The notes beneath the pieces were generated by a model, which saw nothing but the letters and a program-made list of their open reading frames with translations, was not told the origin of the DNA and ran no database searches. From Candidatus Andersenbacteria bacterium RIFCSPHIGHO2_02_FULL_46_16 (GTDB lineage: Bacteria; Patescibacteriota; Andersenbacteria; UBA10190), in NCBI GenBank assembly GCA_001817065.1, contig MHHQ01000025.1:119777-183776 (forward strand): a stretch of DNA of 64,000 nucleotides, written 5' to 3'. Positions 2,213-37,849 of this stretch are shown one piece after another (positions within the stretch are counted from its first letter, which is position 1; each line of letters opens with the position of its first letter). A program made the position numbers and the translations under genes.

Positions 2213-3649
2213 ATGCCACACCGATCTTTTTTTATGCCTGCCGCTCTAATCACCTCCTTCTTGATTCTGCTGATTCTCTCCCTACAATATCCCCTCAGTA
2301 CCACATTCCCCATCGGTGGTGACGCTGCTTTTTATGCCCGTCGCGCTCAGGTCGCTCTACAGTTCTTTGACGATCCCACCGCATCCATCCAAGCCCTTAA
2401 AAATTCGTGGTATCCGCTTTCTCTGGCCATTTTTTCCGCCACCAACATATTGCCGTTGGATTGGCCTAGCCGCTTTACTTGGTCAATGGTCATCGCCCAT
2501 GTCTCCGTAGGAATCTGCTTAGCTTTGCTCCTACGACGCATCGGAGGATGGCCTTCGGCCGCCCTAGTGATGATTATTTGGGCTGTAACAACTACCAGCA
2601 TTAACAGCAATTTTGAAGACGGTACACTCGCGCAATTAATCAGCTTTTCCTTCCTCGCTCTTTTTTTGGAACGCTTTACCGCTGGCGCTAAGTGGTCCGC
2701 CCTCCTCGCACTCATTGCCACGCCATTAACTCACCCCATAACTGGATTAGCACTGCTAGTCAGCCTGCTTGTTACGACTCCCGCGCTTTTTTCTGCCTGG
2801 TCATCACTAACCGCACCACATAAAAAACAGTTACTCCTGATCTGCCCGATCAATTTTCTTCTGCTTCTATTAGTGCTGTTCACCGGTAAATCTGTCTTTT
2901 CTACGTCCAAATATATAATTGGTGTAGCTAAGGACCCCTTCATCAATGTCCTGGTTTCTAGTTATGCCCCCTTTGTTACCCTGGCTCCCCTGGGACTGCT
3001 CCTCTTATTAAGATCTGCTGCTCCGACCACCGCTAAATACATCATTGCTATTCTCTTTAGCCTTTCCGTTATGCTAGCCGGTAATGATTTACTGGAGATT
3101 GCCGTCTGGACACAACGCCTCCTGCCTCTTTTTATTTTTTTTGTTTCTATTTTAGCCTCTTTATCGCTATCGCACATCATTCAAACCGTCTATAAAAGTA
3201 ATTTTTCTCGTGTTCTATTTAGTTTAGTTATCGTAGCCTATTTCTGTACCGCTGCCTGGATAAGCAACAGTCGCGTCTACCGTTATTACGAAAACCCTGC
3301 TAACTATGCCAGGCTGCACCCGGATGAACTGGCCGCCATGTATTGGCTTCGTGACCATTTAACCAAGAATAGTTATATCACTACCTCTGATAAAAACCGC
3401 CATACAGAGTGGCTGCCTGTCATTACTTCCCTGCAGTGGCTCGCTGTCTCACCCGATGATGAATCCCTAATTAACCCCACCAACGATCAGATTGATTCAT
3501 TGACTTATCGCAAACAAAAGTACGTTGCTTATTTTACCCAGCGCGAAAACATCCCCACTCCAGTCTTAGAGTCTCCGGGCCGATATCCTCTGGTCTTTTC
3601 TAATCAATCTGTAGCCGTTTATCATGTACCGCCCTACACCTATGAGTAA
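2213..3649 (+). CDS. Polytopic membrane protein of at least 10 TM segments, possibly a GT-C-type glycosyltransferase or polymerase
   Basis: Long hydrophobic ORF with a C-terminal soluble tail. I recognise no family motif. Confidence 0.45.
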   Translation: MPHRSFFMPAALITSFLILLILSLQYPLSTTFPIGGDAAFYARRAQVALQFFDDPTASIQALKNSWYPLSLAIFSATNILPLDWPSRFTWSMVIAHVSVGICLALLLRRIGGWPSAALVMIIWAVTTTSINSNFEDGTLAQLISFSFLALFLERFTAGAKWSALLALIATPLTHPITGLALLVSLLVTTPALFSAWSSLTAPHKKQLLLICPINFLLLLLVLFTGKSVFSTSKYIIGVAKDPFINVLVSSYAPFVTLAPLGLLLLLRSAAPTTAKYIIAILFSLSVMLAGNDLLEIAVWTQRLLPLFIFFVSILASLSLSHIIQTVYKSNFSRVLFSLVIVAYFCTAAWISNSRVYRYYENPANYARLHPDELAAMYWLRDHLTKNSYITTSDKNRHTEWLPVITSLQWLAVSPDDESLINPTNDQIDSLTYRKQKYVAYFTQRENIPTPVLESPGRYPLVFSNQSVAVYHVPPYTYE

Positions 3650-4019
3650 TAACTTTATCTCACGTCTCGCTGCCTACCTTCTCCTCCTCACTTTTGGCGG
3701 TCTTTTATTGCCTATCCCTAAAGTTTATCTGGCTACCATTCTTCTAGTTAGTTTACTACTTTACTTAGTTAATACAGCCATCACTCATCCATCGACCGTT
3801 CTAATTTTCCTTGTCTTCATCATTATCCCCTTGGTTGCCTTCCAAGTGCCCACTTTTATCCCTGCAACATTGCCTCCCTTGCACCAATTGGCAATCGCCA
3901 CCGCCCTGTGGGGCACGCTAATCAGCCTGCTTGTTTCAATCCTTTCCTTGTCTACCAGTTATATTCGATTACGCTTAGGTCAAACCGTTCCATCTCGGTC
4001 GGATCATGCTCCAAAGTAG
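3624..4019 (+). CDS. Small hydrophobic membrane protein (hypothetical)
   Basis: The ORF is 131 aa with 3-4 predicted TM helices. It overlaps its neighbours at both ends. Confidence 0.25.
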   Translation: MYRPTPMSNNFISRLAAYLLLLTFGGLLLPIPKVYLATILLVSLLLYLVNTAITHPSTVLIFLVFIIIPLVAFQVPTFIPATLPPLHQLAIATALWGTLISLLVSILSLSTSYIRLRLGQTVPSRSDHAPK

Positions 4020-4380
4020 CTAAGTTGGCGACAATCGATAGTTGCTGGCAAAGGCCTATCATTCCGTTGGTCACTCCATGGGGAATATGTAACAAACCAT
4101 AGCAATCTGTACTAAGATAGTATTCTTCAATCTGTCCACCAGTAGACGACTTTTCCCTTCCATCATATAGCACCACCTTGACTGCACCCGTTATGCAAGC
4201 ATAATTCAAGTCCATCTGTTTGTGTTTATGCCAAGCTTTTATCACCCCGTGATATAACGAGGTAAAGTAAATTTCACCGAACTGGCTATATGATTCATCT
4301 GACTTTTTCATCAACTGCCAAACTACACCCCGATCATCTGGGATTTTTTTTAATGTTTTATAAATTACTCCCTCTATCAT
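3952..4380 (-). CDS. RmlC-family cupin, an NDP-4-keto-6-deoxyhexose 3,5-epimerase-like protein
   Basis: PDDRG...F.E...K..GVIKAWHKH...ITGAVKVVLYD aligns with the RmlC core DERGFF...GVLRGLHFQ...RCVRGAIFDVAVD. The gene is co-directional with the rfbF-like gene. Confidence 0.55.
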   Translation of the reverse strand: MIEGVIYKTLKKIPDDRGVVWQLMKKSDESYSQFGEIYFTSLYHGVIKAWHKHKQMDLNYACITGAVKVVLYDGREKSSTGGQIEEYYLSTDCYGLLHIPHGVTNGMIGLCQQLSIVANLATLEHDPTEMERFDLSVIEYNW

Positions 4381-5450
4381 ACCTTCACTTTTATATCATC
4401 GATCATTCGTAGCGTATTCGACATCAATCCTGCCTGCATCATGGCCCGGTAACGCCTTAATGTATAGTAGCCATTAAATTTGCTATCCTCGTTATCAAAA
4501 CCGCGCTTCCTAAAAATTTGCACCAAGTCCTGCACCCCTTGATTAATTGACCATTTGGCTTGCCAGCCAGCTTGCTCTATCTTGTCAAAGCTTACTCGAT
4601 ACGTCCTCTCGTCTCGTGTGCTTTCACTTTTAATGATTATTTTACTGCCTGCTATCACTTGCTGTACTTTCGCGGCAATATCCCGGACTTGCCGGTTATT
4701 CGCTGCCTGACCGATATTAAACGCTTCTCGGCACACTTGCTCGGCAGGCGCTTCCATTAAAAACATAAACGCCTTAGCACAATCCATTACATGCAAATTA
4801 GGCCGCCATGGCGTTCCATCGCTTAAGACCTCTATACGGCCATTTAAATAACCATTGGCCGTCAAATCGTTTACGACTAAATCTAGACGCAACCGAGGCG
4901 AAAAGCCAAAAACTGTGGCATTGCGTAAAATTACTGGCACGAATCCATGGCTGGCCATTCGAACTAGCTCTTTTTCCATCATCACTTTGGACTTAGCATA
5001 GGCCGTTCTCGGATTTACTTTGTCTTTTTCAGTCACCACTTTCGGTCCGCTCGCTCCATAAGTACTGCAGGATGATGAAAATAAAAATCGCTCGATCTTA
5101 GCCTTCTTAGCAATTTCTGCTAATCTGACCCCCGCCTTAAAGTTAATATCGTAAGTCAGCTGCTGATCCAATTCTCCCAGTGGATCGTTGGATAAGCCCG
5201 CCAAATGAATCACCGCTTCACACCCTGCCAAGTCGTCTTTCTCTATGTCACGGATGTCCTTTTTTATTTGGACGGTGGCCGGCAGTCGAGGCACCATTTG
5301 CACATCTTCAAAAATGCCAGCATCAATTCCCACAACCTTATATCCCGCCTCGATCAGCAACCTTGTCAACACCGATCCTATGTAACCTTGGTTACCTGTG
5401 ACCGCTATTTTTCTCTTCCGCTCTGCTCCCAAGTTTTCTTTTGCTGCCAT
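4377..5450 (-). CDS. NAD-dependent epimerase/dehydratase (SDR) of a CDP-sugar pathway
   Basis: VTGNQGYIGSVL Rossmann motif and YAKSK catalytic dyad. It lies between the cytidylyltransferase gene and the cupin epimerase gene. Confidence 0.65.
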   Translation of the reverse strand: MAAKENLGAERKRKIAVTGNQGYIGSVLTRLLIEAGYKVVGIDAGIFEDVQMVPRLPATVQIKKDIRDIEKDDLAGCEAVIHLAGLSNDPLGELDQQLTYDINFKAGVRLAEIAKKAKIERFLFSSSCSTYGASGPKVVTEKDKVNPRTAYAKSKVMMEKELVRMASHGFVPVILRNATVFGFSPRLRLDLVVNDLTANGYLNGRIEVLSDGTPWRPNLHVMDCAKAFMFLMEAPAEQVCREAFNIGQAANNRQVRDIAAKVQQVIAGSKIIIKSESTRDERTYRVSFDKIEQAGWQAKWSINQGVQDLVQIFRKRGFDNEDSKFNGYYTLRRYRAMMQAGLMSNTLRMIDDIKVKV

Positions 5451-6190
5451 AGATTATTTAAGTATTGCACATCCTTTACCGTATTCATCGCATGCCAGAA
5501 TCCATCATGCCGATATTGTCCGAGCTTCTTCCTATCTGCCATTCTAGCTAATCCGTCTTCTAAAGCCTCGCCCACTCGTAAATACTTTAATGCTTCTTGC
5601 TCGAACACCATGAATCCGCCATTAATATATTCCTTCACCTTCGGTTTTTCCGCAAACTTTTTCACTACATCCCTCTTATCCGCCCAGACCTTACCGTAAT
5701 GTGATGACGGATGGGCTACCGTAATTGTTGCCTTAATACCCAAACGCTTTTTTTGTTTATTATGATAGCTGATCAACCTATCTAAATTTACATCACTCAC
5801 ATCATCTCCGTACGACACTAGAAACTGTTTATCCTTAATATATTTAGCCGCTATCAGTACTCTTTCCGCTGTATCTGCCAGCTCTCCCGTTTCAATTAGT
5901 CCTACCTTATAATCCCAGGGCATTTTATCAGTCAACAATTTTATCTCGCCGCCCACTAAGTCCACTTCAACATCATTAGCTGTTTTTACCAGATTAAAAA
6001 AATACTCTCTTATTAAATCACCGCGATAACCTAAACATAACAGGAATTCTTTATAGTCATACTGACCATAGAGGTTCATAATATGAATCAATATCGGCCA
6101 TTCACCCACTCTCACCATTGCTTTCGGTTTAAATTCAGTTTCTTCGTTCATGCGCCAACCACGGCCGCCACATAAAATTATTGTTTTCAT
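5405..6190 (-). CDS. rfbF: Glucose-1-phosphate cytidylyltransferase
   Basis: MKTIILCGGRGWRM...KPKAMV...GEWPILIHIMNLY...FLLCLGYRGDLIREYF closely matches the RfbF/DdhA N-terminus. Confidence 0.8.
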   Translation of the reverse strand: MKTIILCGGRGWRMNEETEFKPKAMVRVGEWPILIHIMNLYGQYDYKEFLLCLGYRGDLIREYFFNLVKTANDVEVDLVGGEIKLLTDKMPWDYKVGLIETGELADTAERVLIAAKYIKDKQFLVSYGDDVSDVNLDRLISYHNKQKKRLGIKATITVAHPSSHYGKVWADKRDVVKKFAEKPKVKEYINGGFMVFEQEALKYLRVGEALEDGLARMADRKKLGQYRHDGFWHAMNTVKDVQYLNNLWQQKKTWEQSGREK

Positions 6191-6541
6191 CTTATCACCT
6201 TAAGCGACGATCCCTCATTCCCGCAAGCTCCTTATTGTGTCTTTCCGTCTTGTCGTCCGAAGCTTTACGCATACGATGAAGCTGTAAAAAAGGTAACGCT
6301 AGAAAGGCAAAACAACAAATTAAAATCAAAATAATTAAGACTGTCATTGCATAGCGAAAGTTTTACACTATGAACCTCCCCGCGGCAAGACCGCGGGGAA
6401 TCATCTAGTTGAATTGATATTTTACGCTTTCCTTTTTACGTTTTTCCTTCTTTGATTATTATCACCTTTTTGCCATACCACACCTGACACTTGAAAATTT
6501 CCGATTTGTATCTACCTCCCACTTTCTAGTATTTTAGTTAT

Positions 6542-7528
6542 ATGAGTAAAATACTCGTCACTGGCGGTGCCGGATTTATTGGTGCCCACGTCGCTACCAA
6601 ACTGCTGGAGCGTGGCGACGATGTGGTTATTATTGATGATTTTAATGACCGCTATGACCCGCGATTAAAACATTTACGCTTTGAACACTTTTTTTCCGGC
6701 AGCCTCAAGCCCAAGTTAGTCACTGGTGATATTCGCGACAATGATCTTATCACGAAACTTTTTGACCAAGAAAAATTCAATCATGTCATTCATTTAGCTG
6801 CTTGGGCAGCCGTTCAAACCAGCATCGATAATCCCTACATATACACTTCTGTGAACGTGGATGGTACCGTTAATGTCTTTGAGGCCGCTCGTCACAACGA
6901 CGTCAAAAACATCGTTTTTGCTTCCAGCTCTTCCGTTTATGGCGGTCGTGATAAAGTTCCGTTCCAAGAAAAAGACGATGTTTCTCGTCCGATCTCACCT
7001 TATGCCGCTACCAAGGCAGCCGGTGAAATTATGTGCGCCACCTGGTATAACCTGTATCAAATCCCGATCAGCGCCCTGCGCTTTTTTACGGTTTATGGCC
7101 CCTGGGGTCGACCTGAAATGGCCATTTTTAAATTCTCTGAAGCTATCCTGCGTGGCCAGCCCTTGTTAATGCGCGGTCATCAAACTATGCGTGACTTTAC
7201 CTTTATCGATGATTGTGTACAGGGAGTCATTAGTGCCTTGGACCATCCGCACCAATTCTCAATTTTCAATTTAGGTGAATCAGACGCCGTGCCTCTGCCT
7301 CGTCTTATTTCCGCCCTGGAGCACTCTTTTAATAAGCCAGCTCTCATTCAAGAGGTTCCCTTACCGCCTGGCGATGTGCCACGTACTCTAGCTGATATTT
7401 CCCTAGCGCAAGCCATGCTGTCCTACCAACCTGTCACTAAAATAGAGGACGGCATAGCTAAATTCACCCAGTGGTATAAAGAGTGGTACATTCCTAACTT
7501 TCTTCCGGATTTAACCAATTCCCTTTAG
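6542..7528 (+). CDS. NAD-dependent epimerase/dehydratase, UDP-glucuronate 4-epimerase-like (GalE superfamily)
   Basis: ILVTGGAGFIGAHV, YAATKAAGE, FFTVYGPWGRPEMA. The gene is divergent from the rfbF operon. Confidence 0.7.
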   Translation: MSKILVTGGAGFIGAHVATKLLERGDDVVIIDDFNDRYDPRLKHLRFEHFFSGSLKPKLVTGDIRDNDLITKLFDQEKFNHVIHLAAWAAVQTSIDNPYIYTSVNVDGTVNVFEAARHNDVKNIVFASSSSVYGGRDKVPFQEKDDVSRPISPYAATKAAGEIMCATWYNLYQIPISALRFFTVYGPWGRPEMAIFKFSEAILRGQPLLMRGHQTMRDFTFIDDCVQGVISALDHPHQFSIFNLGESDAVPLPRLISALEHSFNKPALIQEVPLPPGDVPRTLADISLAQAMLSYQPVTKIEDGIAKFTQWYKEWYIPNFLPDLTNSL

Positions 7529-8232
7529 CTTTCGCCCTGTCCACTCCCTTCCTTCTGCCGCCACAAAGCATGCGGCGCTGCGGCGATTATAACCACGGCT
7601 AATAAATATGCCATCCCAGTAATTATAGCTCGGGTTGGATTCTCTATTGCTCCTTGCTTATATCGTTGCCACTTTTGCCGTCGACCGAACACCTGCATAC
7701 TAATATCGCCATTTTTCTTATTGCTGGCTATCCAATAGTTTCCCGCTGGGTATCTGCCATCATCCTTTTCGATAAATATCCGCGGTGCCTTGCCTTGTTC
7801 GTTACTGCTAATTTCTCTGCCGTCCATGGTTAATACATACTTACCTTCCCAAGCAGTTTCACTATCCAGCGGCAATGCTATTTCGTAAATTCCCTCGTTT
7901 TTTCCCGCTTCGTGATATTCGCTCAACCGCCATTGTTCTAAAACATTTCCTTCTTGCCTCAAACTAATTTCTACTGCCCCCGCTTCTTGTGGTATAAACA
8001 TCGGAATTATCAGTCTCGTCACTGGCGTTCGCTCGTTTATAACAAATTCCTGCGAGACATTAAACTGCGCATATATCTTTAAAGCAAATCCCGGGTCTCG
8101 ATATGCTAAAATATCAATTATTTTATATTCTTCATACTTCGTTGCCATCAACCACCCACTGCCTATTACGACAATTAATATCACTACCGATAATAAATAT
8201 CTTATTATCACAAAAATGATTTCTTTCTTCAT
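7525..8232 (-). CDS. Hypothetical bitopic membrane protein with N- and C-terminal TM helices around an extracytoplasmic domain
   Basis: The ORF-track start at 8241 is a GTG. The first ATG (MKKEII) is at 8232. Confidence 0.45.
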   Translation of the reverse strand: MKKEIIFVIIRYLLSVVILIVVIGSGWLMATKYEEYKIIDILAYRDPGFALKIYAQFNVSQEFVINERTPVTRLIIPMFIPQEAGAVEISLRQEGNVLEQWRLSEYHEAGKNEGIYEIALPLDSETAWEGKYVLTMDGREISSNEQGKAPRIFIEKDDGRYPAGNYWIASNKKNGDISMQVFGRRQKWQRYKQGAIENPTRAIITGMAYLLAVVIIAAAPHALWRQKEGSGQGES

Positions 8233-8257
8233 ACTTCCCACAATAACGGTACAATTA

Positions 8258-15700: not shown

Positions 15701-15704
15701 ATAC

Positions 15705-30618: not shown

Positions 30619-30619
30619 A

Positions 30620-32065
30620 CTATATTGCTAATAAAGCCAGCACTATCGTTAACCCAATTATCCAGTAATAAATAGGGTCTCTTATAATATACATGACTGG
30701 ATCATCACCTATCTTGCCACGATAGGCATTCAACCAGCCCCGGCTTACTCCATATAGCAATAGCAAAGCTACTAACCACCAGTATTCCGAATGCCTATAG
30801 AGTCTGGCGACCTGTGTACTATTTATGTATAAAGCCATCACCAATACCGCCAAAAATCCGCTCATTATGCCCATCTGTCCCACCAATGCCATATCAGCTC
30901 TCGCGTATCCTCGGCCCGACAAATTACCTTTTACCGCTAGTTCCTTCACTCGACTAAGCTCAACATATCGCTTCATCAAAGCTCCACTTAAAGCTAAAAA
31001 TAATATTAAGGCCATTAACCAATCGGATACAGCAATATTGGCCGCCGCGCCTCCCGCCATAATACGCAAACCGTATAAAACGGCCAATATAATTACATCC
31101 AACAAGACAATCTGCTTTGCCCCTAGTGAGTATATTAAATTAAGCAAGAAATAAGTTATCACCATTTTTACAAATAGTCCATCTAGACCCGCCGCAATGA
31201 TTGCTCCAGTTCCTAACAACACTATTACCATTGCTGTGCCTTGCCAAAGCGACAGCTCGCCTGAGGCTAATGGCCGATATCTTTTAGTCGGATGACGCCT
31301 ATCCGCCTCCAGATCCAACATGTCATTGATTAGATAGATGGCTGATGCAATCAAGCAGAACACCACAAACGCCCTGCCCGCTTTCACACCGACTATCCAA
31401 TTCAGCTGATGATCCGCTAGCATAGGAATCAACAGTAATAAATTTTTTACCCACTGGTGGGGACGTATAGCCGCCCACATCGCTTTCAGCGCCGACCTCT
31501 TACTTCGCCACACCTTTCCCACTAACGTTGTCTTCGCGACTATCCGCCTTAGCCGATCGCTGTTCGTTACCGCATGTGCGGTGCCGGCTTTTTCCCACAC
31601 CGCCAGGTCCTTTCGGCTGTTGCCAATATAATCGAAACCTCTTAGCCCGAATTTATTTACCAGCGCTGTTGCTTTATTCCTGCCGGACAGATTGACCCCT
31701 TCTTCCGTCCCCATCACTCCTTCAAATATTTGTAAATGTTCGGCCACTTGCCTAGCTATGCGACTATCGCTAGCTGTCACCAACCATAGCTTTCTGCCAG
31801 CGATTCTTTGCGTCGTCAAGTAATCCAGTACAGCCAAGTGATATGGCAACGTCGCGACATTAATCTGCGCTTGTCCGACCAGCCGTCCTTTAAAATAAGC
31901 TAAGCCTTTTCTCAGCCACCAAGCGCTCTTGAATACCCCACTCGCATCGCGCTTGGCCAGTCTCAGCCACAGCTCGAATAAGGTATCTGTTTTTACTAGC
32001 GTGCCGTCCAGGTCGACGGCAATCGGTCGGCCTTTATTTTCCACCTTCTGCGCATCAAAAACCAT
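30620..32065 (-). CDS. Fusion protein: an N-terminal HAD-family phosphatase domain plus a C-terminal UbiA-family polyprenyl-phosphate phosphoribosyltransferase (Rv3806c-like)
   Basis: HAD motif I VDLDGTLV. UbiA motif INDMLDLEADRRHPTKRYRPLASG followed by about 7 TM helices. The gene is co-operonic with the DprE1/DprE2-like genes. Confidence 0.65.
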   Translation of the reverse strand: MVFDAQKVENKGRPIAVDLDGTLVKTDTLFELWLRLAKRDASGVFKSAWWLRKGLAYFKGRLVGQAQINVATLPYHLAVLDYLTTQRIAGRKLWLVTASDSRIARQVAEHLQIFEGVMGTEEGVNLSGRNKATALVNKFGLRGFDYIGNSRKDLAVWEKAGTAHAVTNSDRLRRIVAKTTLVGKVWRSKRSALKAMWAAIRPHQWVKNLLLLIPMLADHQLNWIVGVKAGRAFVVFCLIASAIYLINDMLDLEADRRHPTKRYRPLASGELSLWQGTAMVIVLLGTGAIIAAGLDGLFVKMVITYFLLNLIYSLGAKQIVLLDVIILAVLYGLRIMAGGAAANIAVSDWLMALILFLALSGALMKRYVELSRVKELAVKGNLSGRGYARADMALVGQMGIMSGFLAVLVMALYINSTQVARLYRHSEYWWLVALLLLYGVSRGWLNAYRGKIGDDPVMYIIRDPIYYWIIGLTIVLALLAI

Positions 32066-32985
32066 ATCAAAGCCACTAATACCAGACCAAACACGCCCAC
32101 TGCTGCCATTCGAATGATTGTTGTTGCTTTAAATTTATACTGTTTTTCTTCATCATTTGTAACTGGTGCCGGTGTGGGCTCAATTTTCACCAAGGCGTTT
32201 TCTGTTCTAGTAAACATGAGTGCTTGGCTAGCTGCTAATGTTCTACCATCAGTACTAACTGCTGCAGCATAAATTTTGTAATCACCTATGTCAAGCGTGT
32301 CACCGCTCACATAAGTAAAGCGCCCTGTTTTGTCTGTCCTGGTCACCCATAACTTTGGCTGATTGCCCATGACCAATAAAGCTATCAAACTATAATTAGG
32401 TCCGGTGCCAGTAATCGTTAACTGTTCATTTTCTCCGCTGTCCCCCAACCTCATACCCGTTATCTGATAACGATTATCATTTGCTTGGGTCGGTTCTGTG
32501 TACTCAATTTTGTCGTTCGGAGATGCCAGCAGCGGATTATAACCTCGCACCACCTCAATACCATCCGCATATGTATCACCATCGGTATCAGGATTACTGG
32601 CATTCGTAATCAACATAATCTCATCACTATCGCTCAAACCGTCCTGATCTCGATCTAGGCTCGCTTCTAGCAGTGGAAAAGGCAAGTCAGCGGTGTTAAC
32701 ACTGGGCAAGGCTGAGACTTGCGGCAACACCGACTCAACCACATTTCTACTCTCCATTAATTGCTGCACTAAGTTAGGATTCCCTGCTCGCTGCGCTTCC
32801 TCTAATGCTCTTTGATAACTCTCCATCAAATCAGCACTCGTCCCCGCTTCTTCGCCCGGTACCGCCACCGTTTGCTGATCAGCCCCAGGCTCAATTGCAT
32901 CATGTACATCAAAATCTTCATTCGCCCATACTGCAAGACCAGCTATTAACCCTCCGCTGATTAGCACTGTTATTAACTTTCTCAT
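31996..32985 (-). CDS. Secreted, C-terminally membrane-anchored protein with Ca-binding Asp-rich repeats (dockerin or thrombospondin-type-3-like) and a Pro/Thr linker
   Basis: Signal peptide MRKLITVLISGGLIAGLAVWA. Repeats DQDGLSDSDEI...DTDGDTYADGIEV. PTPAPVT linker, followed by a TM helix and an RRRWK tail. Confidence 0.5.
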   Translation of the reverse strand: MRKLITVLISGGLIAGLAVWANEDFDVHDAIEPGADQQTVAVPGEEAGTSADLMESYQRALEEAQRAGNPNLVQQLMESRNVVESVLPQVSALPSVNTADLPFPLLEASLDRDQDGLSDSDEIMLITNASNPDTDGDTYADGIEVVRGYNPLLASPNDKIEYTEPTQANDNRYQITGMRLGDSGENEQLTITGTGPNYSLIALLVMGNQPKLWVTRTDKTGRFTYVSGDTLDIGDYKIYAAAVSTDGRTLAASQALMFTRTENALVKIEPTPAPVTNDEEKQYKFKATTIIRMAAVGVFGLVLVALIWFLMRRRWKIKADRLPSTWTAR

Positions 32986-33025: not shown

Positions 33026-35167
33026 TTACTGCGATTGTGTAAATCGATAAGCTATATCATAACCTTCGCGGCGAAATTGACTATTACTCGCCCTCTCTCC
33101 CAATGCCTCGTGGCGCCACGCCATCTGTCCCACCAATATGTCCACTGGCGAGAATAGCACGGTTATTGCATCACCCGGTTTTGCCATCGGACTGGTCAGA
33201 GAAATAAAGTATTCTTCCCCGTCGCTATTATTAAGTGACGCAAAATCAAACCGGTGCCACTCCATGTCCTCAATCTGATCAGCCGCCACTTTCATTGTTC
33301 TAATATCGGTATTGTCATTAATATCCTTCCGGATATGTAGCATAACGTCCTGTGTGTTATTCCGGCCGCTGAAATTTGCTAGGCCAATCTCAATACTTTG
33401 CCAATTGGCTGGTGCCGTGATTAACTGACCCACTTCCATATCACCATAAAGCTCTCCGGTATTATTAGTAAAATATTTAAGCCCGATCACGTTATAAATC
33501 CACACGTATTCTTTCCCGGTTATTCTTATCACATGTTCCGGCACTTTATCCGCCAACTCTTTCAATACATTAGAAGCTAGCTCATCCTCGCCTCTTCCAT
33601 ACATGTTGCGATATGTTACAACATAGCCCACCCGGTCATCATGCCGGGAGCTTAAACTCATCGTTTTTCCTTGGAAATAAGTCCTCATAACTCCCGGATA
33701 CCAAGAAGCAACCGTCAGCCGATTCCCCAACGTCCGTTCGTTTAACCATAACGCTGCCGCATCCAAACCCTCTCCCCATCCTTGCGAACTTAACGCTCTA
33801 ATATCAAACATTGGACTATTGTAAGCAATACTATAGGGTATCCAACCGACCACCTGAATCAGCAACGCTACTACCACCAAACCCATCACCGTTCTTCGCC
33901 ACATAATTTTCTGCCAAGTTGCAATCGTTTTCTTTATAGCCTGATCAGCTACACTAAGCCCCAGGGCAGCCAATACTGGCAACACCACCAATGCCGGCAA
34001 TGCATATCTATCCGCTTTTTTGGCCATCAAGGAAATTACCACAAGGTAACCGATAATATATGCTATCAGCCATCCCAGCACTCGGATAAACACAACACTA
34101 TCAGACCCTTTTACTCCATCATGCCTGCCCAGCCGTCCGACCACATGACGCCAAATTAACTCCTGTCCATAAAACCTGATCCAACCTACTATCATTCCCA
34201 AGCCAATCAACAAAACAAATGGCGATGTTCGCCCTAATACCACGCGGACATAGAAACCCAGTGCCTCAATCGGCTCCTCCGACTGCTCTAGCGTCACGTG
34301 CTCCTGTGTTGCCACCGACACAACATCCCGTGCATAATAATCAGCCAAATTTGTCTTTACCCACAGTGCCGGCCAGACCAAGTAAAAAGTTAGTACGGCG
34401 ATCCCTACGTAGAATAAAAATTGGCGACTGACCGTTTTAATTTGCTCACCTAGTATACGCCAATCAATGTGCCTTATAGCAGGAACAAACCAACCATACT
34501 GTCCTTTTATAATCCCGGCACTGACAAGTAATAACCAAAGACCTGGTAATAATTTAGTCCCCCATGCAAACCCGGTCATTATTCCAGCTATCACTAACCA
34601 GCGCCATTTCAAATTTTCTGTAAAAATCAGTAATCCCAGCATGGCGGATAACATAAATAACGCCAGCAGCATATCGACATGAACTATTTGACTCATACCG
34701 ACTAGATACGGCTCCACGGCCAATAACACGCCCGCCCACGTTCCTACGAAACTGCCCATCAATCTCGTCACTAAATAAGTTATCAGACCAATCAATAAAG
34801 ATACGCCTAAGACCATCGGCCAAGTACTAGCCATGCGAAATGCAGCCAAATTAGACGTATCTACTCCCGTCCCCATTCTCTTTTCTTGCGCGTAAATACC
34901 AGCCCCAGCCAGCCACTGTGTTGTTGCCCCCGGATGAGTCGTGGTAAATGTTCCGCCCGGATCATTTTTTTCCAATAACTTATGATAAAATTCACCGCTC
35001 CTCGTCATCCATAGCTCCTCGTCTACCGTCATAAATGATCCCACGCCATAAAGGCGCAATACCACTGTTAAAAATACTACTCCCCAAACTATCCTGACCG
35101 GCTTTTTTGCGGCCAACTTCTGCTCATTCCCCCGATTACCACTGCTTATCGCACGAATTGTGTTCAT
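33026..35167 (-). CDS. Glycosyltransferase family 39 (PMT/ArnT-like) membrane protein
   Basis: VDEELW...HPGATTQWLAG and AKKADRYALP motifs shared with the paralogs at 18015 and 20744. Confidence 0.7.
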   Translation of the reverse strand: MNTIRAISSGNRGNEQKLAAKKPVRIVWGVVFLTVVLRLYGVGSFMTVDEELWMTRSGEFYHKLLEKNDPGGTFTTTHPGATTQWLAGAGIYAQEKRMGTGVDTSNLAAFRMASTWPMVLGVSLLIGLITYLVTRLMGSFVGTWAGVLLAVEPYLVGMSQIVHVDMLLALFMLSAMLGLLIFTENLKWRWLVIAGIMTGFAWGTKLLPGLWLLLVSAGIIKGQYGWFVPAIRHIDWRILGEQIKTVSRQFLFYVGIAVLTFYLVWPALWVKTNLADYYARDVVSVATQEHVTLEQSEEPIEALGFYVRVVLGRTSPFVLLIGLGMIVGWIRFYGQELIWRHVVGRLGRHDGVKGSDSVVFIRVLGWLIAYIIGYLVVISLMAKKADRYALPALVVLPVLAALGLSVADQAIKKTIATWQKIMWRRTVMGLVVVALLIQVVGWIPYSIAYNSPMFDIRALSSQGWGEGLDAAALWLNERTLGNRLTVASWYPGVMRTYFQGKTMSLSSRHDDRVGYVVTYRNMYGRGEDELASNVLKELADKVPEHVIRITGKEYVWIYNVIGLKYFTNNTGELYGDMEVGQLITAPANWQSIEIGLANFSGRNNTQDVMLHIRKDINDNTDIRTMKVAADQIEDMEWHRFDFASLNNSDGEEYFISLTSPMAKPGDAITVLFSPVDILVGQMAWRHEALGERASNSQFRREGYDIAYRFTQSQ

Positions 35168-35173
35168 CCCTCG

Positions 35174-37849
35174 TTATCTCTTACGCCGGTAGTAAGTCAT
35201 AGTGTTTGATCCGTTCTCTATACCTTTAACGGCCTGCCAATTCCTGGCTAACCCCGCCTCAATTTCCTCATATTCCATCAAAAACGAGAATCCTGTTTGC
35301 TGCTCTAGTAATAACCATTCAGCATCGCGGTATGCTTGCAGCATTTCTTCTACCGTCGGCAAAAATGCATTCAGCCTGGCCGTATCTGTACGCGTAAATC
35401 CGTACGCATACCAACGCGGATGAGCGATATCGAGCGATACCTCATGTCCTGATAAAAATGGTATAGCCGCTGCACCAGTAAATATCGGCTCATCTATTGG
35501 TATATTCTGTTTTGCCCAATTTGCCGCCTCTTGTAGAGATGTCAGCTGGAATGTTCCCGTATGTTCATGCACGTAAGTTACATAATTCGCCACAAATAAT
35601 GACCATCCCAGTACCCCGATAAATCCCAGTGCTAATGTCCTCTGGCTTACTTTATTAACTATTGCACTATGGCTGCCTTGTCCTTGTGTTAATCTTCGCC
35701 ATCCTTCCGGTATTGCTAAACCTGCGATAATCACCAACGGCGGCAGAAACTCGCCGATATAATTAGCATGAAATTTTATCCAGTTATGATAGAAAAAGAC
35801 TAGTCCAACCACCCATACGAATGGCAATAACCAGCCCAGGAGATTCCAGCGTCCCTCTGATTTTAGCTGGTTACCAAGCCTATCGATCTTCCCCGCCGCC
35901 AATCCGTCCGCCAGGGTACCTCGATATTCTAATAATTCTTCCTTGCCCAACCTCTCCGTGTCATCTTTATTATTTCTTATTTTTTCATTTTTATTCTCTC
36001 TAACTCCAGACGGCCAGGCAGCCATAAATACAATTACTAATAACATCGCCCACCATAAGCGATACATGCCGAACACCATTATGCTGCTGCCTTCATACTC
36101 TTGAAAAAACGACCACGCCCAGCTATATACCATTACCGGTATAATCCAGAATAGTTTTTGCACGACGTTCTGTCGCCAGCCTAATCCACCCTGCCACCAT
36201 TCCATTTGACCAACTAGAGAACTTGCCAATCGCTCTCCCGCGAAACCCAAACCTAGCACAGCTAACATGATTAAAGGCAGGGACTCCCGGAAAAATGGCG
36301 TCATTCCTCGTATCGAATAGGCTCGCACTTGTTCCCGTTCGGATTCTTCTACGGCGGTAATACTATCCTCCACTGAATTAAATCCAGTTGCTTCCCATAA
36401 CCCAGCCTGACCATAAATTAACATTGCAACGCCTAAAAAAACTGCTAATACGATCACAAACCCCGCACCGACTAATAATAAACTCTGGATTTTTTGTCGT
36501 CCCGTCTTACTGCCAATCAATATTACCAATAATGGCACTAAACCTGTGGCTAGAATGCTTTTGCGCGATACCACCCCTAATCCCAACAATGCCCCCGCCG
36601 CTATTAACCACGCCTTGCCTGTTACCCTGTATTTTCTTTCCATACTCACCTGGCTCACGTACATATCCCTAGTTCCCAGCAGCAAAGCAGCTATTCCAGA
36701 CACGGCAAAGAAAATCGCTAGCGACTGTGTATGCACGTATATATTAAACACTACCGTTACACCCAGCAGCGCCCAGGTCGTAGCAACCGATAGTCCGACT
36801 TTTTTACTCCATAATTCTCGGCCAATAATATACATCGGCCACATCGTCATTGCGCCAATCACCACCGACGACAAGCGTCCCACAAAAATTGATGTGCCGC
36901 CCAACCATTCCCATAGCGCAATCCACAAAACTACTAACGGTGCTTTAACATACCCATCTCCGCCCGCCAATTTACCTTTAAGCAGCGTAGCCGCATCGTA
37001 TAAATAATTTCCCTCATCATTAGTCAGCGGCAGCTCCATCGCATATAAAATTCTAGCGACTAGTGCCAGCACAAACAATGTCACCAACCATCTCGCCACC
37101 TGCCAACGCGATTTAGCGCTTACCGCTTTACTCTTAATGCCTACGGTCACTGCCAAACAAATCCCCACCAGGAGCAGGGACTGCATAGCCACCCGTCCCC
37201 ACAAACCATAAGTCGCCCTGGCTTCATACCAGGTCTCTCTAAAATACTGCACTGCCCGCCAGCCTTCACTTCCCCATGCCACATACAATGGCACCTTATA
37301 TGCTGTGCCAAAAGCTAGGTCCATTTTCACTTTACCTCCTCTGGCCAGCTCTGTATCAGATATTTCCCCTGTCATTCCCCGCCAAATATAAGCGGAGCCG
37401 CGATGATAAGGATCCCTGTTATCAACGTCCACTGTCACCGCTTTTCCAGGCATCCCGTCTGGTAATTCTAGTAAAACAATAAATGTTATATCCTTGGCTT
37501 GCTCCACCGGATCAAAATTAAACTGGTACATTTGATTATCTCCAAGCTCTCTAGTACTTACCTCCACTTCACGTAAAATTTCTGACAGCTTATCCAACCG
37601 ACGCAAAGTAAACTTTACTTGTCCGGTATTCCCCCGCCCAGAATAAGTAGCGAACATTACCAAGACACTGGATAAATTATCACGCTCGCCCACAAAAGTT
37701 TGCCCCACCACCACTCCACCCAACATTTCCCCCGCATTCGCGGTATATCTCTCCGCCTGATATCCTTCTAATTCCGTAGTACCCAGCCATACCACCATCC
37801 CCAGCACCGCCAGCACACCGATCATCAGGCTGATGAAACCAATTTTCAT
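35174..37849 (-). CDS. Large GT-C-type membrane glycosyltransferase (ArnT-like) with an N-terminal extracytoplasmic domain
   Basis: The ORF is 891 aa. A NDEGNY motif precedes a multi-TM core. Confidence 0.5.
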   Translation of the reverse strand: MKIGFISLMIGVLAVLGMVVWLGTTELEGYQAERYTANAGEMLGGVVVGQTFVGERDNLSSVLVMFATYSGRGNTGQVKFTLRRLDKLSEILREVEVSTRELGDNQMYQFNFDPVEQAKDITFIVLLELPDGMPGKAVTVDVDNRDPYHRGSAYIWRGMTGEISDTELARGGKVKMDLAFGTAYKVPLYVAWGSEGWRAVQYFRETWYEARATYGLWGRVAMQSLLLVGICLAVTVGIKSKAVSAKSRWQVARWLVTLFVLALVARILYAMELPLTNDEGNYLYDAATLLKGKLAGGDGYVKAPLVVLWIALWEWLGGTSIFVGRLSSVVIGAMTMWPMYIIGRELWSKKVGLSVATTWALLGVTVVFNIYVHTQSLAIFFAVSGIAALLLGTRDMYVSQVSMERKYRVTGKAWLIAAGALLGLGVVSRKSILATGLVPLLVILIGSKTGRQKIQSLLLVGAGFVIVLAVFLGVAMLIYGQAGLWEATGFNSVEDSITAVEESEREQVRAYSIRGMTPFFRESLPLIMLAVLGLGFAGERLASSLVGQMEWWQGGLGWRQNVVQKLFWIIPVMVYSWAWSFFQEYEGSSIMVFGMYRLWWAMLLVIVFMAAWPSGVRENKNEKIRNNKDDTERLGKEELLEYRGTLADGLAAGKIDRLGNQLKSEGRWNLLGWLLPFVWVVGLVFFYHNWIKFHANYIGEFLPPLVIIAGLAIPEGWRRLTQGQGSHSAIVNKVSQRTLALGFIGVLGWSLFVANYVTYVHEHTGTFQLTSLQEAANWAKQNIPIDEPIFTGAAAIPFLSGHEVSLDIAHPRWYAYGFTRTDTARLNAFLPTVEEMLQAYRDAEWLLLEQQTGFSFLMEYEEIEAGLARNWQAVKGIENGSNTMTYYRRKR

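What the first reader, a model, noticed from the sequence alone, without database searches (positions are those of the whole stretch)
2213..37849. Exceptional density and paralog expansion of GT-C membrane glycosyltransferases
At least 10 large polytopic GT-C-like proteins lie within about 36 kb. There are four GT39/PMT/ArnT-like paralogs that share the ADE(K/E)xW...HPGxTTxWLG and AKKxDRYxLP motifs (18015, 20744, 33026 and probably 25113). There are two tandem TPR-fused TMTC/PMT-like enzymes carrying the YSNTWxAPFVLDD motif (13748 and 15705). There are two tandem, translationally coupled YfhO-like proteins (8511 and 10966). And there are two more at 2213 and 35174. A GT2 polyprenyl-phosphate hexosyltransferase (40174..41136) lies nearby as the probable lipid-donor synthase. 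Together this suggests a dedicated, elaborate protein or cell-envelope O-glycosylation machinery. Bacterial TPR-fused PMT/TMTC-like enzymes are essentially uncharacterised.
Basis: partly seen in the sequence, partly recalled or inferred. Interest (0 to 1): 0.7.

Follow-up and report, generated by a model that had tools for sequence, protein, structure and literature searches.

The report
Ten-enzyme membrane glycosylation cluster with arabinose-donor pathway
An uncultured ultra-small groundwater bacterium (Candidatus Andersenbacteria) packs ten membrane glycosyltransferases of the GT-C type into 36 kb, next to a complete mycobacterium-style pathway for a lipid-linked arabinofuranose donor, so it probably builds an elaborate pentose-containing cell surface.

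Summary
All ten flagged ORFs are polytopic membrane proteins with GT-C hallmarks, and they fill 58% of the 35.6 kb.

- Four pass Pfam cut-offs: 18015, 20744 and 33026 (PMT/PMT_2) and 10966 (YfhO).
- 8511 is a divergent YfhO relative (hhalign 97.7%).
- 35174 is confirmed through its family profile.
- 25113 is only probable, and it is not a paralog of the 18015 group.

Genes 28523-32065 encode a HAD-UbiA phosphoribosyltransferase plus DprE1 and DprE2 homologs, the polyprenyl-phosphate D-arabinofuranose pathway. They appear co-transcribed with three of the GT-Cs and with the GT2 donor synthase.

The source is Candidatus Andersenbacteria (CPR/Patescibacteria). The whole array, including the arabinose cassette and a pilin-like gene, is syntenic in a relative at about 50% identity, so the paralogs are old.

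Closest known systems are pilin arabinosylation by Pseudomonas TfpW (also GT-C plus TPR), three-component pentofuranose systems, and the mycobacterial arabinan cluster. Acceptors remain unknown. I rate it a new variant of a known kind, with two orphan GT-C families.

The parts
2213..3649 (+). A: orphan-family GT-C glycosyltransferase (478 aa)
   Evidence: No Pfam, NCBIfam or PDB sequence hit. Only 18 homologs among 5.8 billion clusters, all from Andersenbacteria-like organisms. AF2 pLDDT 86.3; the top 27 Foldseek PDB hits are all GT-C, including STT3, ArnT, AftA and PglB. D37 is invariant in the loop after TM1.
3624..4019 (+). Small hydrophobic ORF (131 aa, about 4 TM helices) overlapping the end of A; candidate lipid-sugar flippase or accessory subunit (speculative)
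   Evidence: Hydropathy. No Pfam hit. A 128-aa gene is called at the same position in the syntenic relative, although tblastn did not detect similarity.
7525..8241 (-). L: bitopic membrane protein (238 aa, TM helices at both ends) with an extracytoplasmic domain
   Evidence: No Pfam or NCBIfam hit. Conserved at the same position in the relative at 37% identity. Weak hhalign match to the N-terminal domain of B (E 2.6e-4, prob 42%). Same architecture as stand-alone homologs of J's N-terminal domain, but not detected by that domain's HMM.
8511..10973 (+). B: divergent YfhO-like GT-C (820 aa) with an N-terminal extracytoplasmic domain
   Evidence: No Pfam hit. 27 homologs, one of them fused to a GT2 domain. 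Weak DUF6044 hits in 6 of 25 family members. Family profile against C: hhalign 97.7%, E 2.2e-12, 342 columns. D275 is invariant.
10966..13740 (+). C: YfhO-family GT-C (924 aa), overlapping B by 8 nt
   Evidence: Pfam YfhO 41.7 bits, above the 28.5 cut-off. LLDD motif after TM1. The overlap with B is conserved in the relative.
13748..15760 (-). D: GT-C membrane domain (about 1-470) fused to C-terminal TPR repeats; TMTC/TfpW-like architecture. The true start is probably the ATG at 15700.
15705..17876 (-). E: paralog of D (42% identity), GT-C plus TPR
   Evidence: BLAST E 1e-153 to D. TPR Pfam hits. Has its own ortholog at 57% identity in the relative.
18015..20099 (-). F: PMT/PMT_2-type GT-C with a C-terminal extracytoplasmic domain of about 130 aa
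   Evidence: Pfam PMT 34.9 bits, above the 22.7 cut-off. The domain is shared with I and J.
20259..20687 (-). M: pseudopilin-like small membrane-anchored protein between F and G; candidate acceptor protein
   Evidence: Weak GspG/T2SSG hits (E 7.7e-5 and 2.7e-3, both below cut-off). One N-terminal TM helix and a C-terminal Cys-x5-Cys. No canonical prepilin G/E+5 site. Conserved at the same position in the relative at 52% identity.
20744..22204 (+). G: PMT_2-type GT-C, paralog of F and I, without the extra domain
   Evidence: Pfam PMT_2 35.0 bits, above the 26.1 cut-off. 29% identical to F.
25113..26630 (-). H: probable GT-C (PMT_2-like), a lineage separate from F, G and I
   Evidence: PMT_2 23.5 bits, below the 26.1 cut-off (E 7e-5), covering 149 of 160 model positions. 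GDE motif after TM1. hhalign to the J family at E 2.5e-4 in the correct register. Absent from this position in the relative.
26648..28507 (-). AsnB-type glutamine amidotransferase, conserved next to DprE2
   Evidence: Pfam Asn_synthase 283 bits; NCBIfam asn_synth_AEB 443 bits. Same position in the relative. Its role in this cluster is unknown.
28523..29266 (-). DprE2-like SDR reductase
   Evidence: NCBIfam PRK07102 268.6 bits, above the 267 cut-off. DprE2 model 147.6 bits, E 5e-43, below its 250 cut-off.
29293..30618 (-). DprE1-like FAD oxidase
   Evidence: NCBIfam DprE1 model 339.8 bits, E 3e-101, below the 500 equivalog cut-off. Matches PDB 4AUT and 4FDN (DprE1) at E 2e-67 over nearly the full length.
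30620..32065 (-). Fused HAD phosphatase (residues 1-190) and UbiA-type polyprenyl-phosphate phosphoribosyltransferase (196-481)
   Evidence: NCBIfam PRK08238 527 bits, above the 351 cut-off. Matches PDB 8J8J (Rv3806c) at E 2.8e-31, including the NDxxDxxADRxHPxKRxRP motif. HAD motif DLDGT is present. Same N-terminal PRP plus C-terminal PPPRS order as C. youngae ORF15.
31996..32985 (-). K: predicted surface protein with N- and C-terminal hydrophobic segments and thrombospondin-type-3-like Asp-rich repeats
   Evidence: Hydropathy and sequence. Only weak NCBIfam hits to CglD and MtsD repeats. Possible acceptor or accessory protein; this is inference only.
33026..35167 (-). I: PMT/PMT_2-type GT-C with a C-terminal domain, in the apparent operon with the arabinose cassette
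   Evidence: Pfam PMT 34.4 bits and PMT_2 32.2 bits, both above cut-off. Domain at 558-682 is shared with J 39-163.
35174..37849 (-). J: large GT-C (891 aa) with the shared domain at its N-terminus, a PMT_2-type membrane core, and a conserved C-terminal region
   Evidence: PMT_2 24.7 bits, below cut-off. 854 homologs among representative clusters. 30 of 34 family members hit PMT_2. The family profile hits GPI mannosyltransferase I and ArnT in the PDB. D278 and E279 are invariant.
37894..40087 (-). NAD-dependent sugar epimerase/dehydratase (37894-38880) and GT4 glycosyltransferase (38936-40087), upstream in the same apparent operon
   Evidence: Pfam Epimerase 180 bits; Glycos_transf_1 150 bits.
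40174..41136 (-). GT2 polyprenyl-phosphate sugar synthase (ArnC/GtrB/PgfS-like) with two C-terminal TM helices; first gene of the apparent operon
   Evidence: Pfam Glycos_transf_2 115 bits. NCBIfam ArnC 166 bits and PgfS 146 bits, both below the equivalog cut-offs. Sequence.
687..7528 (.). Nucleotide-sugar genes flanking A: PglF/CapD-like dehydratase (687-2132, -), cupin isomerase (3952-4380, -), epimerase (4377-5450, -), nucleotidyltransferase (5405-6190, -), epimerase/dehydratase (6542-7528, +)
   Evidence: Pfam hits. The same block and gene order occur in the relative.

Best explanation
This is a conserved cell-surface glycosylation supercluster of a Candidatus Andersenbacteria (CPR/Patescibacteria) organism.

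Inferred mechanism:
1. Lipid-linked monosaccharide donors are made on the cytoplasmic face of the membrane. [quoted passage not shown] The fused HAD domain removes the 5-phosphate. DprE1 and DprE2 epimerise C2 to give polyprenyl-phosphate D-arabinofuranose.
2. In parallel, the GT2 enzyme makes a polyprenyl-phosphate hexose or amino sugar from a nucleotide sugar. The many dehydratase, epimerase and nucleotidyltransferase genes in the window supply those nucleotide sugars.
3. The donors are flipped across the membrane. The flippase is not identified.
4. Ten extracytoplasmic GT-C transferases from at least six lineages then use these donors to glycosylate surface acceptors. The lineages are A; B/C (YfhO-like); D/E (TMTC/TfpW-like with TPR); F/G/I; H; and J.

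The TPR-bearing D and E most likely act on proteins, as TfpW and the TMTCs do. The conserved pseudopilin-like protein M is the most obvious candidate acceptor. F, I and J carry a shared extra domain of about 130 aa that may bind a glycan acceptor, like the carbohydrate-binding modules of Emb, AftD and GT136 enzymes.

Shown by computation: the identity and fold class of the enzymes, the presence of the full donor cassette, the gene spacing that suggests an operon, and conservation in a relative. Inferred: the actual sugars, the flipping step, and the acceptors.
For: GT-C status of the ten ORFs.

Donor cassette:
- HAD-UbiA fusion: PRK08238 527 bits, and Rv3806c (8J8J) at E 3e-31 with the catalytic motif conserved.
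- DprE1: E 3e-101 against the NCBIfam model and E 2e-67 against PDB DprE1.
- DprE2-like SDR.
- The UbiA-DprE1-DprE2 gene order is the same as in cassettes from Mesorhizobium, Competibacteraceae and other phyla.

Operon structure: genes from 41136 down to 25113 are all on the minus strand, with gaps of 1-86 nt or overlaps. In order they are GT2, GT4, epimerase, J, I, K, HAD-UbiA, DprE1, DprE2, AsnB and H.

Synteny: a relative at about 50% protein identity keeps the order epimerase, L, B, C, D, E, F, M, G, AsnB, DprE2, DprE1, HAD-UbiA. It also keeps the block PglF, A, small ORF, cupin, epimerase, NTP-transferase.

Precedents:
- TfpW is a GT-C with a TPR domain that uses the DprE1/DprE2 pathway to arabinosylate pilin.
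- The three-component pentofuranose systems have an N-terminal PRP plus PPPRS fusion and a GT-C with a C-terminal CBM.

Reality of the locus: identical proteins occur in several independent assemblies.
Against: - No donor flippase (GtrA, SMR or MATE type) was found inside the cluster. The only candidates are an unclassified 4-TM ORF at 3624-4019 and a MurJ/MOP protein 17 kb away at 55136-56758, which is probably the lipid II flippase.
- DprE1 and DprE2 score below NCBIfam's equivalog cut-offs, so the product could be another pentofuranose.
- None of the GT-Cs hits the Emb/Aft Pfam families, and membership in GT136 could not be tested.
- Nothing assigns a donor or an acceptor to any single GT-C.
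- M lacks a canonical prepilin cleavage site, and its pilin similarity is below cut-off.
- H is supported only by sub-threshold matches.
- The organism is uncultured, so no chemistry is known.
Confidence: 0.6

Rival explanations
1. The cluster is purely a protein O-glycosylation machine. All ten GT-Cs would be protein O-glycosyltransferases of the PMT/TMTC type, fed by the GT2 polyprenyl-phosphate hexose synthase.
For: - PMT/PMT_2 hits for F, G and I.
- TPR fusion in D and E, as in TMTC and TfpW.
- A pseudopilin-like gene lies between F and G.
- The GT2 resembles PgfS, from the streptococcal Pgf system that I recall as an adhesin O-glycosylation system (for the match; the function is from my own knowledge).
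Against: - Pfam PMT_2 also covers lipid and polysaccharide-directed enzymes such as ArnT. The J family profile hits ArnT and GPI mannosyltransferase I.
- YfhO enzymes are known for glycosylating teichoic acids, not proteins (my own knowledge).
- This reading ignores the arabinose cassette, which appears co-transcribed with three of the GT-Cs.
- The extra domains on F, I and J resemble in position the glycan-binding CBMs of polysaccharide-directed GT-Cs.
Confidence: 0.2
2. The cluster assembles or decorates an envelope glycopolymer or lipoglycan. This could be arabinan-like, as in mycobacteria, or several independent three-component side-chain systems acting on a Wzx/Wzy or teichoic-acid-like polymer. 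Protein acceptors would play no part.
For: - DPA genes clustered with several GT-Cs mirror the mycobacterial aftA-embCAB-dprE1/E2-ubiA region (text; also my own knowledge).
- Three-component systems modify polysaccharides.
- Rhamnose and heptose pathways, GT4 enzymes and a MOP-family protein lie in the same window. A Wzx-type flippase lies next to the A block in the relative.
Against: - No Emb/Aft-family hits.
- The TPR domains on D and E and the conserved pseudopilin-like gene point to at least some protein acceptors.
- No Wzy polymerase or ligase was identified in the window.
Confidence: 0.3
3. Several of the GT-C-fold proteins are not glycosyltransferases. They could be polymerases, ligases, flippases or inactive scaffold subunits that share the fold, so the true number of transferases would be well below ten.
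For: - TfpW has been proposed to flip its own donor.
- A and B belong to tiny orphan families with no tested member.
Against: - All ten keep the acidic motif in the first loop, and it is invariant in the four family alignments made (A1, A2, A3, A7).
- Each has been maintained as a separate ortholog in a relative at about 50% identity.
Confidence: 0.15

Closest known systems
Pseudomonas aeruginosa Pa5196/PA7 pilin arabinosylation system (PilA, TfpW, PsPA7_6246-6249)
   Same: - A GT-C enzyme with a DDx motif in loop 1 and a large C-terminal TPR domain, which is the architecture of D and E.
- The donor is made by a UbiA-type phosphoribosyltransferase plus DprE1 and DprE2.
- A pilin-type gene lies within the gene neighbourhood.
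   Different: - Here there are two TPR-GT-Cs plus eight other GT-Cs.
- The TfpW/Emb Pro-rich motif YX6PFX7P is absent from D and E.
- The phosphatase is a fused HAD domain.
- No GtrA-like gene was found.
- The pilin-like gene lacks a canonical prepilin site and lies next to F and G rather than D and E.
- Sequence similarity to TfpW itself was not tested.
Three-component extracytoplasmic pentofuranose systems (Citrobacter youngae O1/O2: ORF15 PRP-PPPRS, ORF14 MATE flippase, ORF12 GT136; Kelly et al. 2024, PMC11127046)
   Same: - An N-terminal HAD (PRP) domain fused to a C-terminal UbiA-type PPPRS.
- An optional DprE1/DprE2 pair for Araf.
- A GT-C with a small domain after TM1 and an extra C-terminal domain. 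F and I have that layout.
   Different: - No MATE flippase lies in the operon.
- Ten GT-Cs rather than one.
- The extra domain is not shown to be a CBM.
- GT136 membership was not tested.
- The host is a CPR bacterium, not a Gram-negative organism with an O antigen.
Mycobacterial arabinan locus (Rv3789-Rv3808c: dprE1, dprE2, aftA, embCAB, aftB, ubiA)
   Same: Decaprenyl-phosphate arabinose synthesis genes are clustered with several GT-C arabinofuranosyltransferases. DprE1 and Rv3806c are clear homologs of the window genes.
   Different: - None of the window GT-Cs hits the Emb/Aft families.
- The phosphatase type differs: HAD here, the unrelated Rv3807c in mycobacteria.
- The density is higher here: ten GT-Cs in 36 kb against about five in a similar span in M. 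tuberculosis (my own knowledge).
Eukaryotic TMTC1-4 O-mannosyltransferases (GT105)
   Same: - GT-C membrane domain followed by TPR repeats.
- Shared motifs: DD in loop 1, KE(T/Q)xxT (here KEIAIT), an ERxxY-like EHRLY, and part of the M2 region (LTFxLN).
- The closest solved folds are PMTs.
   Different: - No hit to the Pfam DUF1736 segment, and the DW motif is missing.
- No detectable sequence match to any solved GT-C.
- The donor may be a pentofuranose rather than mannose.
YfhO/CsbB-type teichoic acid glycosylation in Firmicutes, and the streptococcal Pgf system
   Same: A GT2 polyprenyl-phosphate sugar synthase works with a YfhO-type or other GT-C enzyme outside the membrane. The window GT2 resembles PgfS and ArnC, and C passes the YfhO model.
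   Different: - B is far diverged and has no Pfam hit.
- B and C are a fused-operon pair, each with a large extra domain.
- The acceptor is unknown.

Membership tests
GT-C glycosyltransferase fold superfamily | Polytopic membrane core of about 7-13 TM helices | tested here: met
   Hydropathy for all ten. AF2 helix maps for A and D.
GT-C glycosyltransferase fold superfamily | Acidic (D, DD or DE) motif in the first extracytoplasmic loop after TM1 | tested here: met
   Present in all ten. Invariant in the family alignments of A (D37), B (D275), D/E (D59 D60) and J (D278 E279).
GT-C glycosyltransferase fold superfamily | Structural similarity to solved GT-C enzymes | tested here: met
GT-C glycosyltransferase fold superfamily | Transfer from a polyprenyl-phosphate-linked sugar donor | not testable with these tools
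   Needs biochemistry.
Pfam PMT / PMT_2 (GT39/GT83-type) | Score at or above the Pfam gathering cut-off | tested here: met
   Met for F, G and I. Not met for H (23.5 against 26.1) or J (24.7 against 26.1), although 30 of 34 J-family members match PMT_2 at E up to 0.01.
YfhO (PF09586) | Score at or above the Pfam gathering cut-off | tested here: met
   C scores 41.7 against 28.5, with the best stretch only in the C-terminal part of the model. B has no hit but is homologous to C by hhalign.
TMTC (GT105) | GT-C domain followed by TPR repeats, with the DD (M1), KE(T/Q)xxT (M4) and ERxxY (M7) motifs | tested here: met
   TPRs. D59 D60, K220-E-I-A-I-T225 and E401-H-R403-L-Y405 are conserved in alignment A3. 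Motif definitions come from PMC7801869. M7 matches only approximately.
TMTC (GT105) | DUF1736 segment with the DW motif in loop EL4 | tested here: not met
   No DUF1736 hit in any of 20 family members at E up to 1. The corresponding loop reads QNLDYDYP.
TfpW-type pilin arabinosyltransferase | GT-C with a DDx motif and a C-terminal TPR domain, together with DprE1/DprE2 donor genes | tested here: met
   Features as described.
TfpW-type pilin arabinosyltransferase | Pro-rich YX6PFX7P motif before the TPR domain | tested here: not met
   A regular-expression search found no match in D or E.
TfpW-type pilin arabinosyltransferase | Gene lies directly beside the major pilin gene | tested here: inconclusive
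   A pseudopilin-like gene (20259-20687) lies between F and G, 2.4 kb from E. Its pilin similarity is below cut-off and it has no prepilin site.
Three-component pentofuranose glycosylation system | Polyprenyl phosphoribose synthase (UbiA-type) with an HAD phosphoribose phosphatase | tested here: met
   The domain order matches ORF15.
Three-component pentofuranose glycosylation system | Dedicated flippase (MATE or SMR/GtrA type) in the locus | tested here: not met
   No such family hit among the cluster ORFs scanned. A MurJ/MOP gene lies 17 kb away. The small 4-TM ORF at 3624-4019 is unclassified.
Three-component pentofuranose glycosylation system | GT-C of family GT136 | not tested
   No GT136 model or sequence was available in the tools. 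Only the domain layout of F and I is similar.
DprE1/DprE2 epimerase pair | Full-length homology to DprE1 (FAD oxidase) and an adjacent SDR reductase | tested here: met
   DprE1: E 3e-101 (NCBIfam) and E 2e-67 (PDB 4AUT), residues 37-426. DprE2 model at E 5e-43. Both are below the NCBIfam equivalog cut-offs.
Emb/Aft arabinofuranosyltransferases (GT53, GT85, GT87, GT89) | Sequence match to the family models | tested here: not met
   No Pfam or NCBIfam hit to the arabinosyltransferase families for any of the ten. AftA, AftB and AftD appear only as fold neighbours.

The most novel reading that the evidence does not exclude
Ultra-small CPR bacteria of the Andersenbacteria lineage make polyprenyl-phosphate D-arabinofuranose. 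Outside Actinobacteria this donor is known from only a few Proteobacteria. They would use it, together with other lipid-linked sugars, through an ancient ten-member GT-C array to build arabinofuranose-containing surface glycoproteins or glycans. That array includes two GT-C families with no known relatives outside the lineage (A and B). Such glycans could mediate attachment to host cells or protection from phages.
Probability: 0.45. Interest if true: 0.75.

Novelty: new variant of a known kind. Interest (0 to 1): 0.62.

Why it matters
CPR/Patescibacteria are thought to be reduced episymbionts that live attached to other cells, and their surface chemistry is almost unknown. This lineage keeps about 21 kb of GT-C genes plus a full arabinofuranose-donor pathway, within a window of at least 64 kb that is nearly all glycan biosynthesis.

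If the prediction holds:
- D-arabinofuranose glycans would be extended to a new major branch of bacteria.
- Two new GT-C families would be available for structural and enzymatic study.
- Bacterial TPR-fused, TMTC-like enzymes would gain a tractable context, with a defined donor cassette and a candidate acceptor gene.

My searches of the paper library for CPR, Patescibacteria or Parcubacteria together with GT-C, mannosyltransferase or decaprenylphosphoryl terms surfaced no such report. Two of them returned no papers, and for the third only the ten listed titles (none mentioning Parcubacteria) were checked.

Tried and rejected
1. Sequence searches against PDB chains found no GT-C match for single protein I or for the family profiles of A, B and D/E. 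Two gave no hits at all, and the other two gave only unrelated chance matches at E 0.13 or worse. Only the J profile worked.
2. hhalign between the shallow F/G/I alignment and the A, D/E and H queries gave no significant link. The lineages therefore could not be joined by sequence, and fold evidence was needed.
3. Scanning D/E-family members against Pfam for DUF1736 or PMT gave nothing.
4. The afdb50 fold library, which would have shown TMTC models directly, was not available.
5. A metagenome scan for H relatives returned only two loci, too few for a profile. H stays 'probable'.
6. I tested whether L (7525-8241) and the N-terminus of B carry the same domain as F, I and J. An HMM built from 35 homologs of the J domain finds I (E 1e-39) and F (E 7e-9) but not L or B. 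Only weak hhalign matches link B with L and with J. I report this as suggestive only.
7. The Emb/TfpW proline motif was not found in D or E.
8. The GTDB hit naming 'Candidatus Riflebacteria GWC2_50_8' was rejected as the source. That contig shares only 355 residues of DprE1 with the window and nothing downstream. Nine of the ten GT-Cs are deposited under Andersenbacteria/Parcubacteria MAGs.
9. Misassembly or recent duplication as the cause of the array was rejected, because of the independent assemblies and the one-to-one orthologs in a relative.
10. No tRNA or Rfam RNA lies in the window.

Full report
**Source.** Nine of the ten flagged proteins are found, residue for residue, in NCBI records of 'Candidatus Andersenbacteria bacterium' MAGs and of 'Parcubacteria group bacterium GW2011_GWA2_45_14'. 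The tenth, D, was not found with the TTG start I used. The DprE1-like protein lies on a 186-kb contig of GCA_001817145.1 and on at least 24 other metagenome contigs. The organism is therefore a CPR/Patescibacteria bacterium, and the locus has been assembled independently several times. Nearly all of these proteins are deposited as 'hypothetical protein'. A GTDB contig labelled Riflebacteria shares only part of DprE1 with the window and looks chimeric or mis-binned.

**Checking the observation.** The ten ORFs exist at the stated coordinates, and all are polytopic by hydropathy. The quoted motifs are real, but 25113 (H) has none of them and no BLAST similarity to 18015, 20744 or 33026.

Evidence by family search:
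- F, G and I pass the Pfam PMT/PMT_2 cut-offs, and C passes YfhO.
- H and J fall just below the PMT_2 cut-off, at E 7e-5 and 3e-5.
- A, B and the membrane halves of D and E hit nothing in Pfam or NCBIfam.

I resolved the unassigned ones as follows:
- **B.** Its family has 27 members, one of them fused to a GT2 domain. The family profile aligns to C over 342 columns at 97.7% hhalign probability. B is therefore a divergent YfhO-like protein.
- **A.** It has only 18 homologs in 5.8 billion clusters. The AlphaFold model built on that alignment (pLDDT 86) matches only GT-C enzymes in its top 27 Foldseek hits, including STT3, ArnT, AftA, PglB, ALG12 and DPY19.
- **J.** It has 854 homologs among representative clusters. 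Of 34 aligned members, 30 hit PMT_2, and the family profile hits GPI mannosyltransferase I (E 3.5e-9) and ArnT (E 3.7e-6) among PDB sequences.
- **H.** It remains 'probable'. The PMT_2 match covers 149 of 160 model positions, and a weak hhalign match to the J family (E 2.5e-4) puts its GDE motif in register with the family's invariant DE.

All ten carry an Asp-containing motif a few residues after the first TM helix of the GT-C module. None resembles a transporter family. The ten genes cover 20.7 of 35.6 kb.

Between H and I lie four genes of known type:
- 30620-32065 is a fusion of an HAD phosphatase and a UbiA-type prenyl-phosphate phosphoribosyltransferase. It scores 527 bits on NCBIfam PRK08238 and matches Rv3806c (8J8J) at E 3e-31, with the catalytic NDxxDxxAD motif conserved.
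- 29293-30618 is a DprE1 homolog, at E 3e-101 against the NCBIfam model and E 2e-67 against the solved enzyme over nearly its full length.
- 28523-29266 is a DprE2-like SDR.
- 26648-28507 is an AsnB-type amidotransferase.

The first three genes are the complete route from PRPP and polyprenyl phosphate to polyprenyl-phosphate D-arabinofuranose, as established in mycobacteria and summarised in PMC11127046. The gene order UbiA-DprE1-DprE2 is the same in cassettes from Mesorhizobium, Competibacteraceae, Peptococcaceae and others, which are 38-49% identical in DprE1.

By spacing (gaps of 1-86 nt, or overlaps), the genes from 41136 down to 25113 form one apparent minus-strand operon. In order they are GT2, GT4, epimerase, J, I, K, HAD-UbiA, DprE1, DprE2, AsnB and H. 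Two lipid-linked donor synthases are thus co-located with three GT-Cs.

**Conservation.** In a relative represented by a 465-kb metagenome contig, the following order is kept: epimerase, L, B, C, D, E, F, pseudopilin-like M, G, AsnB, DprE2, DprE1, HAD-UbiA. The block PglF, A, small ORF, cupin, epimerase, nucleotidyltransferase lies about 7 kb further on.
- Each window protein has its own ortholog there at 49-65% identity, apart from L at 37%. The paralogs are only 26-42% identical to each other.
- The duplications therefore predate the split of these lineages. The array is old and maintained, not a recent local expansion.
- The two GNAT genes and H are absent from this position in the relative, so they look like an insertion. 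In the relative, the arabinose cassette directly abuts the GT-C array.

**Extra domains.**
- F and I (C-terminal) and J (N-terminal) share a domain of about 130 aa (BLAST E 3e-11; hhalign 98.9%, E 1e-17).
- Among J's homologs the domain also occurs at the C-terminus of other proteins of about 500-600 aa (not examined further), and alone in proteins of about 220 aa with a TM helix at each end.
- L has that last architecture, and the N-terminus of B aligns weakly with L and with J. However, the domain HMM does not detect either one.
- The position of the domain recalls the carbohydrate-binding modules of Emb, AftD and the GT136 enzyme. Its fold was not determined here.

**D and E.** They combine a GT-C core with C-terminal TPR repeats. 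Their family has more than 1600 members across many phyla. The JGI source names many of these 'protein O-mannosyl-transferase', while their precomputed Pfam hits cover only TPR-type and other repeat or helical families, with no GT-C family among those shown. Compared with the TMTC motifs defined in PMC7801869:
- They keep DD in loop 1, KE(T/Q)xxT (here KEIAIT), an ERxxY-like EHRLY, and part of M2.
- They lack the DUF1736 segment and its DW motif.

The bacterial precedent is TfpW of P. aeruginosa. It is a GT-C with a DDx motif and a C-terminal TPR domain that polymerises D-Araf onto pilin using the DprE1/DprE2 pathway. D and E lack TfpW's Pro-rich motif. A conserved pseudopilin-like gene (M) lies between F and G, but its similarity to GspG is below cut-off and it has no prepilin cleavage site.

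**Mechanism proposed.**
1. Donors are made on the cytoplasmic face: polyprenyl-phosphate Araf by the cassette, and a polyprenyl-phosphate hexose or amino sugar by the ArnC/PgfS-like GT2.
2. They are flipped by an unidentified protein.
3. They are used outside the membrane by the ten GT-Cs on protein acceptors (likely for D and E, possibly M or K) and/or on glycan acceptors (likely for the domain-bearing F, I and J).

The rest of the window supplies precursors: dTDP-rhamnose genes, a complete heptose pathway, transketolase and transaldolase, several epimerases, and GT4 enzymes. The enzyme identities and gene linkage are shown by computation. The sugars, the flipping step and the acceptors are inferred.

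**Weak points.**
- No GtrA, SMR or MATE flippase lies in the cluster.
- DprE1 and DprE2 score below the equivalog cut-offs.
- No GT-C could be tied to a particular donor or acceptor.

**Comparison and novelty.** The parts belong to known kinds: GT-C transferases, the DPA pathway, and three-component pentofuranose systems. What is new:
- The combination and its scale: ten GT-Cs of at least six lineages, kept together with the cassette.
- The host, a CPR bacterium.
- Two GT-C families (A and B) that are recognisable only by fold or remote profile and appear confined to this lineage.

My literature searches surfaced no report of GT-C arrays or DPA synthesis in CPR bacteria; two returned nothing, and for the third only the ten listed titles were checked. 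I rate it a new variant of a known kind, of moderate to good interest.

Noticed in passing
window 1-64000: Very strong strand compositional asymmetry. GC skew is -0.27 over the whole window and between -0.08 and -0.375 in every 2-kb bin (the weakest bin is 22001-24000). At third codon positions, coding-strand skew is +0.42 for minus-strand genes and -0.32 for plus-strand genes. The 12.3 kb outside the 38 listed ORFs, used as a proxy for non-coding DNA, has skew -0.24. The bias therefore follows the DNA strand, not transcription direction. It also shapes proteins: the plus-strand GT-Cs A, B, C and G look visibly richer in S, P, T and L than their minus-strand paralogs by eye, with second-codon-position skew of -0.32 against 0.0.
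   Followed up: partly
window 447-480 (-), 23258-23291 (+), 41422-41455 (-), 44477-44510 (+): Four copies of a GC-rich element lie between the larger ORFs, overlapped only by short ORFs that are probably spurious. They share the exact core GGCGCTCGGTGGGGGNCCCCCGCGCCGCCACCCG, with 0 copies expected by chance. The copy at 23160-23345 folds into a single hairpin of about 165 nt (-98 kcal/mol, z -8.0), bounded by the inverted repeat GTCACATTATGAAA / TTTCATAATGTGAC. There is no Rfam match. It could be a MITE/REP-like repeat, a terminator or an unknown RNA.
   Followed up: partly
window 43254-51702 (-): A complete nucleotide-heptose pathway is present: HldD-like epimerase, cytidylyltransferase-like enzyme, GmhB-like HAD, PfkB kinase and SIS isomerase. 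Next to it lie RmlD, transaldolase and a split transketolase. These could supply sedoheptulose-7-phosphate, and ribose-5-phosphate for PRPP.
   Followed up: partly
window 22523-24110 (+) and 25113-26630 (-): Two GNAT acetyltransferase genes and GT-C H lie between G and the AsnB gene. They are absent from that position in the syntenic relative. The GNAT segment has much weaker GC skew (-0.08) and contains one copy of the hairpin repeat, so it looks like an insertion.
   Followed up: partly
L005 (MFYY01000265.1, 'Candidatus Riflebacteria bacterium GWC2_50_8'): This contig is 100% identical to the window over DprE1 residues 1-355. It contains none of the neighbouring genes, which suggests a chimeric or mis-binned contig in that public MAG.
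   Followed up: partly
window 57032-59923 (-) and 55136-56758 (-): A 963-aa DUF4012 protein and a MurJ-family (MOP) flippase sit among GT4 genes downstream of the cluster. MurJ is probably the lipid II flippase, but it is the only flippase-type gene seen in the window.
   Followed up: no
P0186 (homolog of B): One member of the B family is fused to a GT2 domain (PF00535). This supports a functional link between this orphan YfhO-like family and polyprenyl-phosphate sugar synthases.
   Followed up: no
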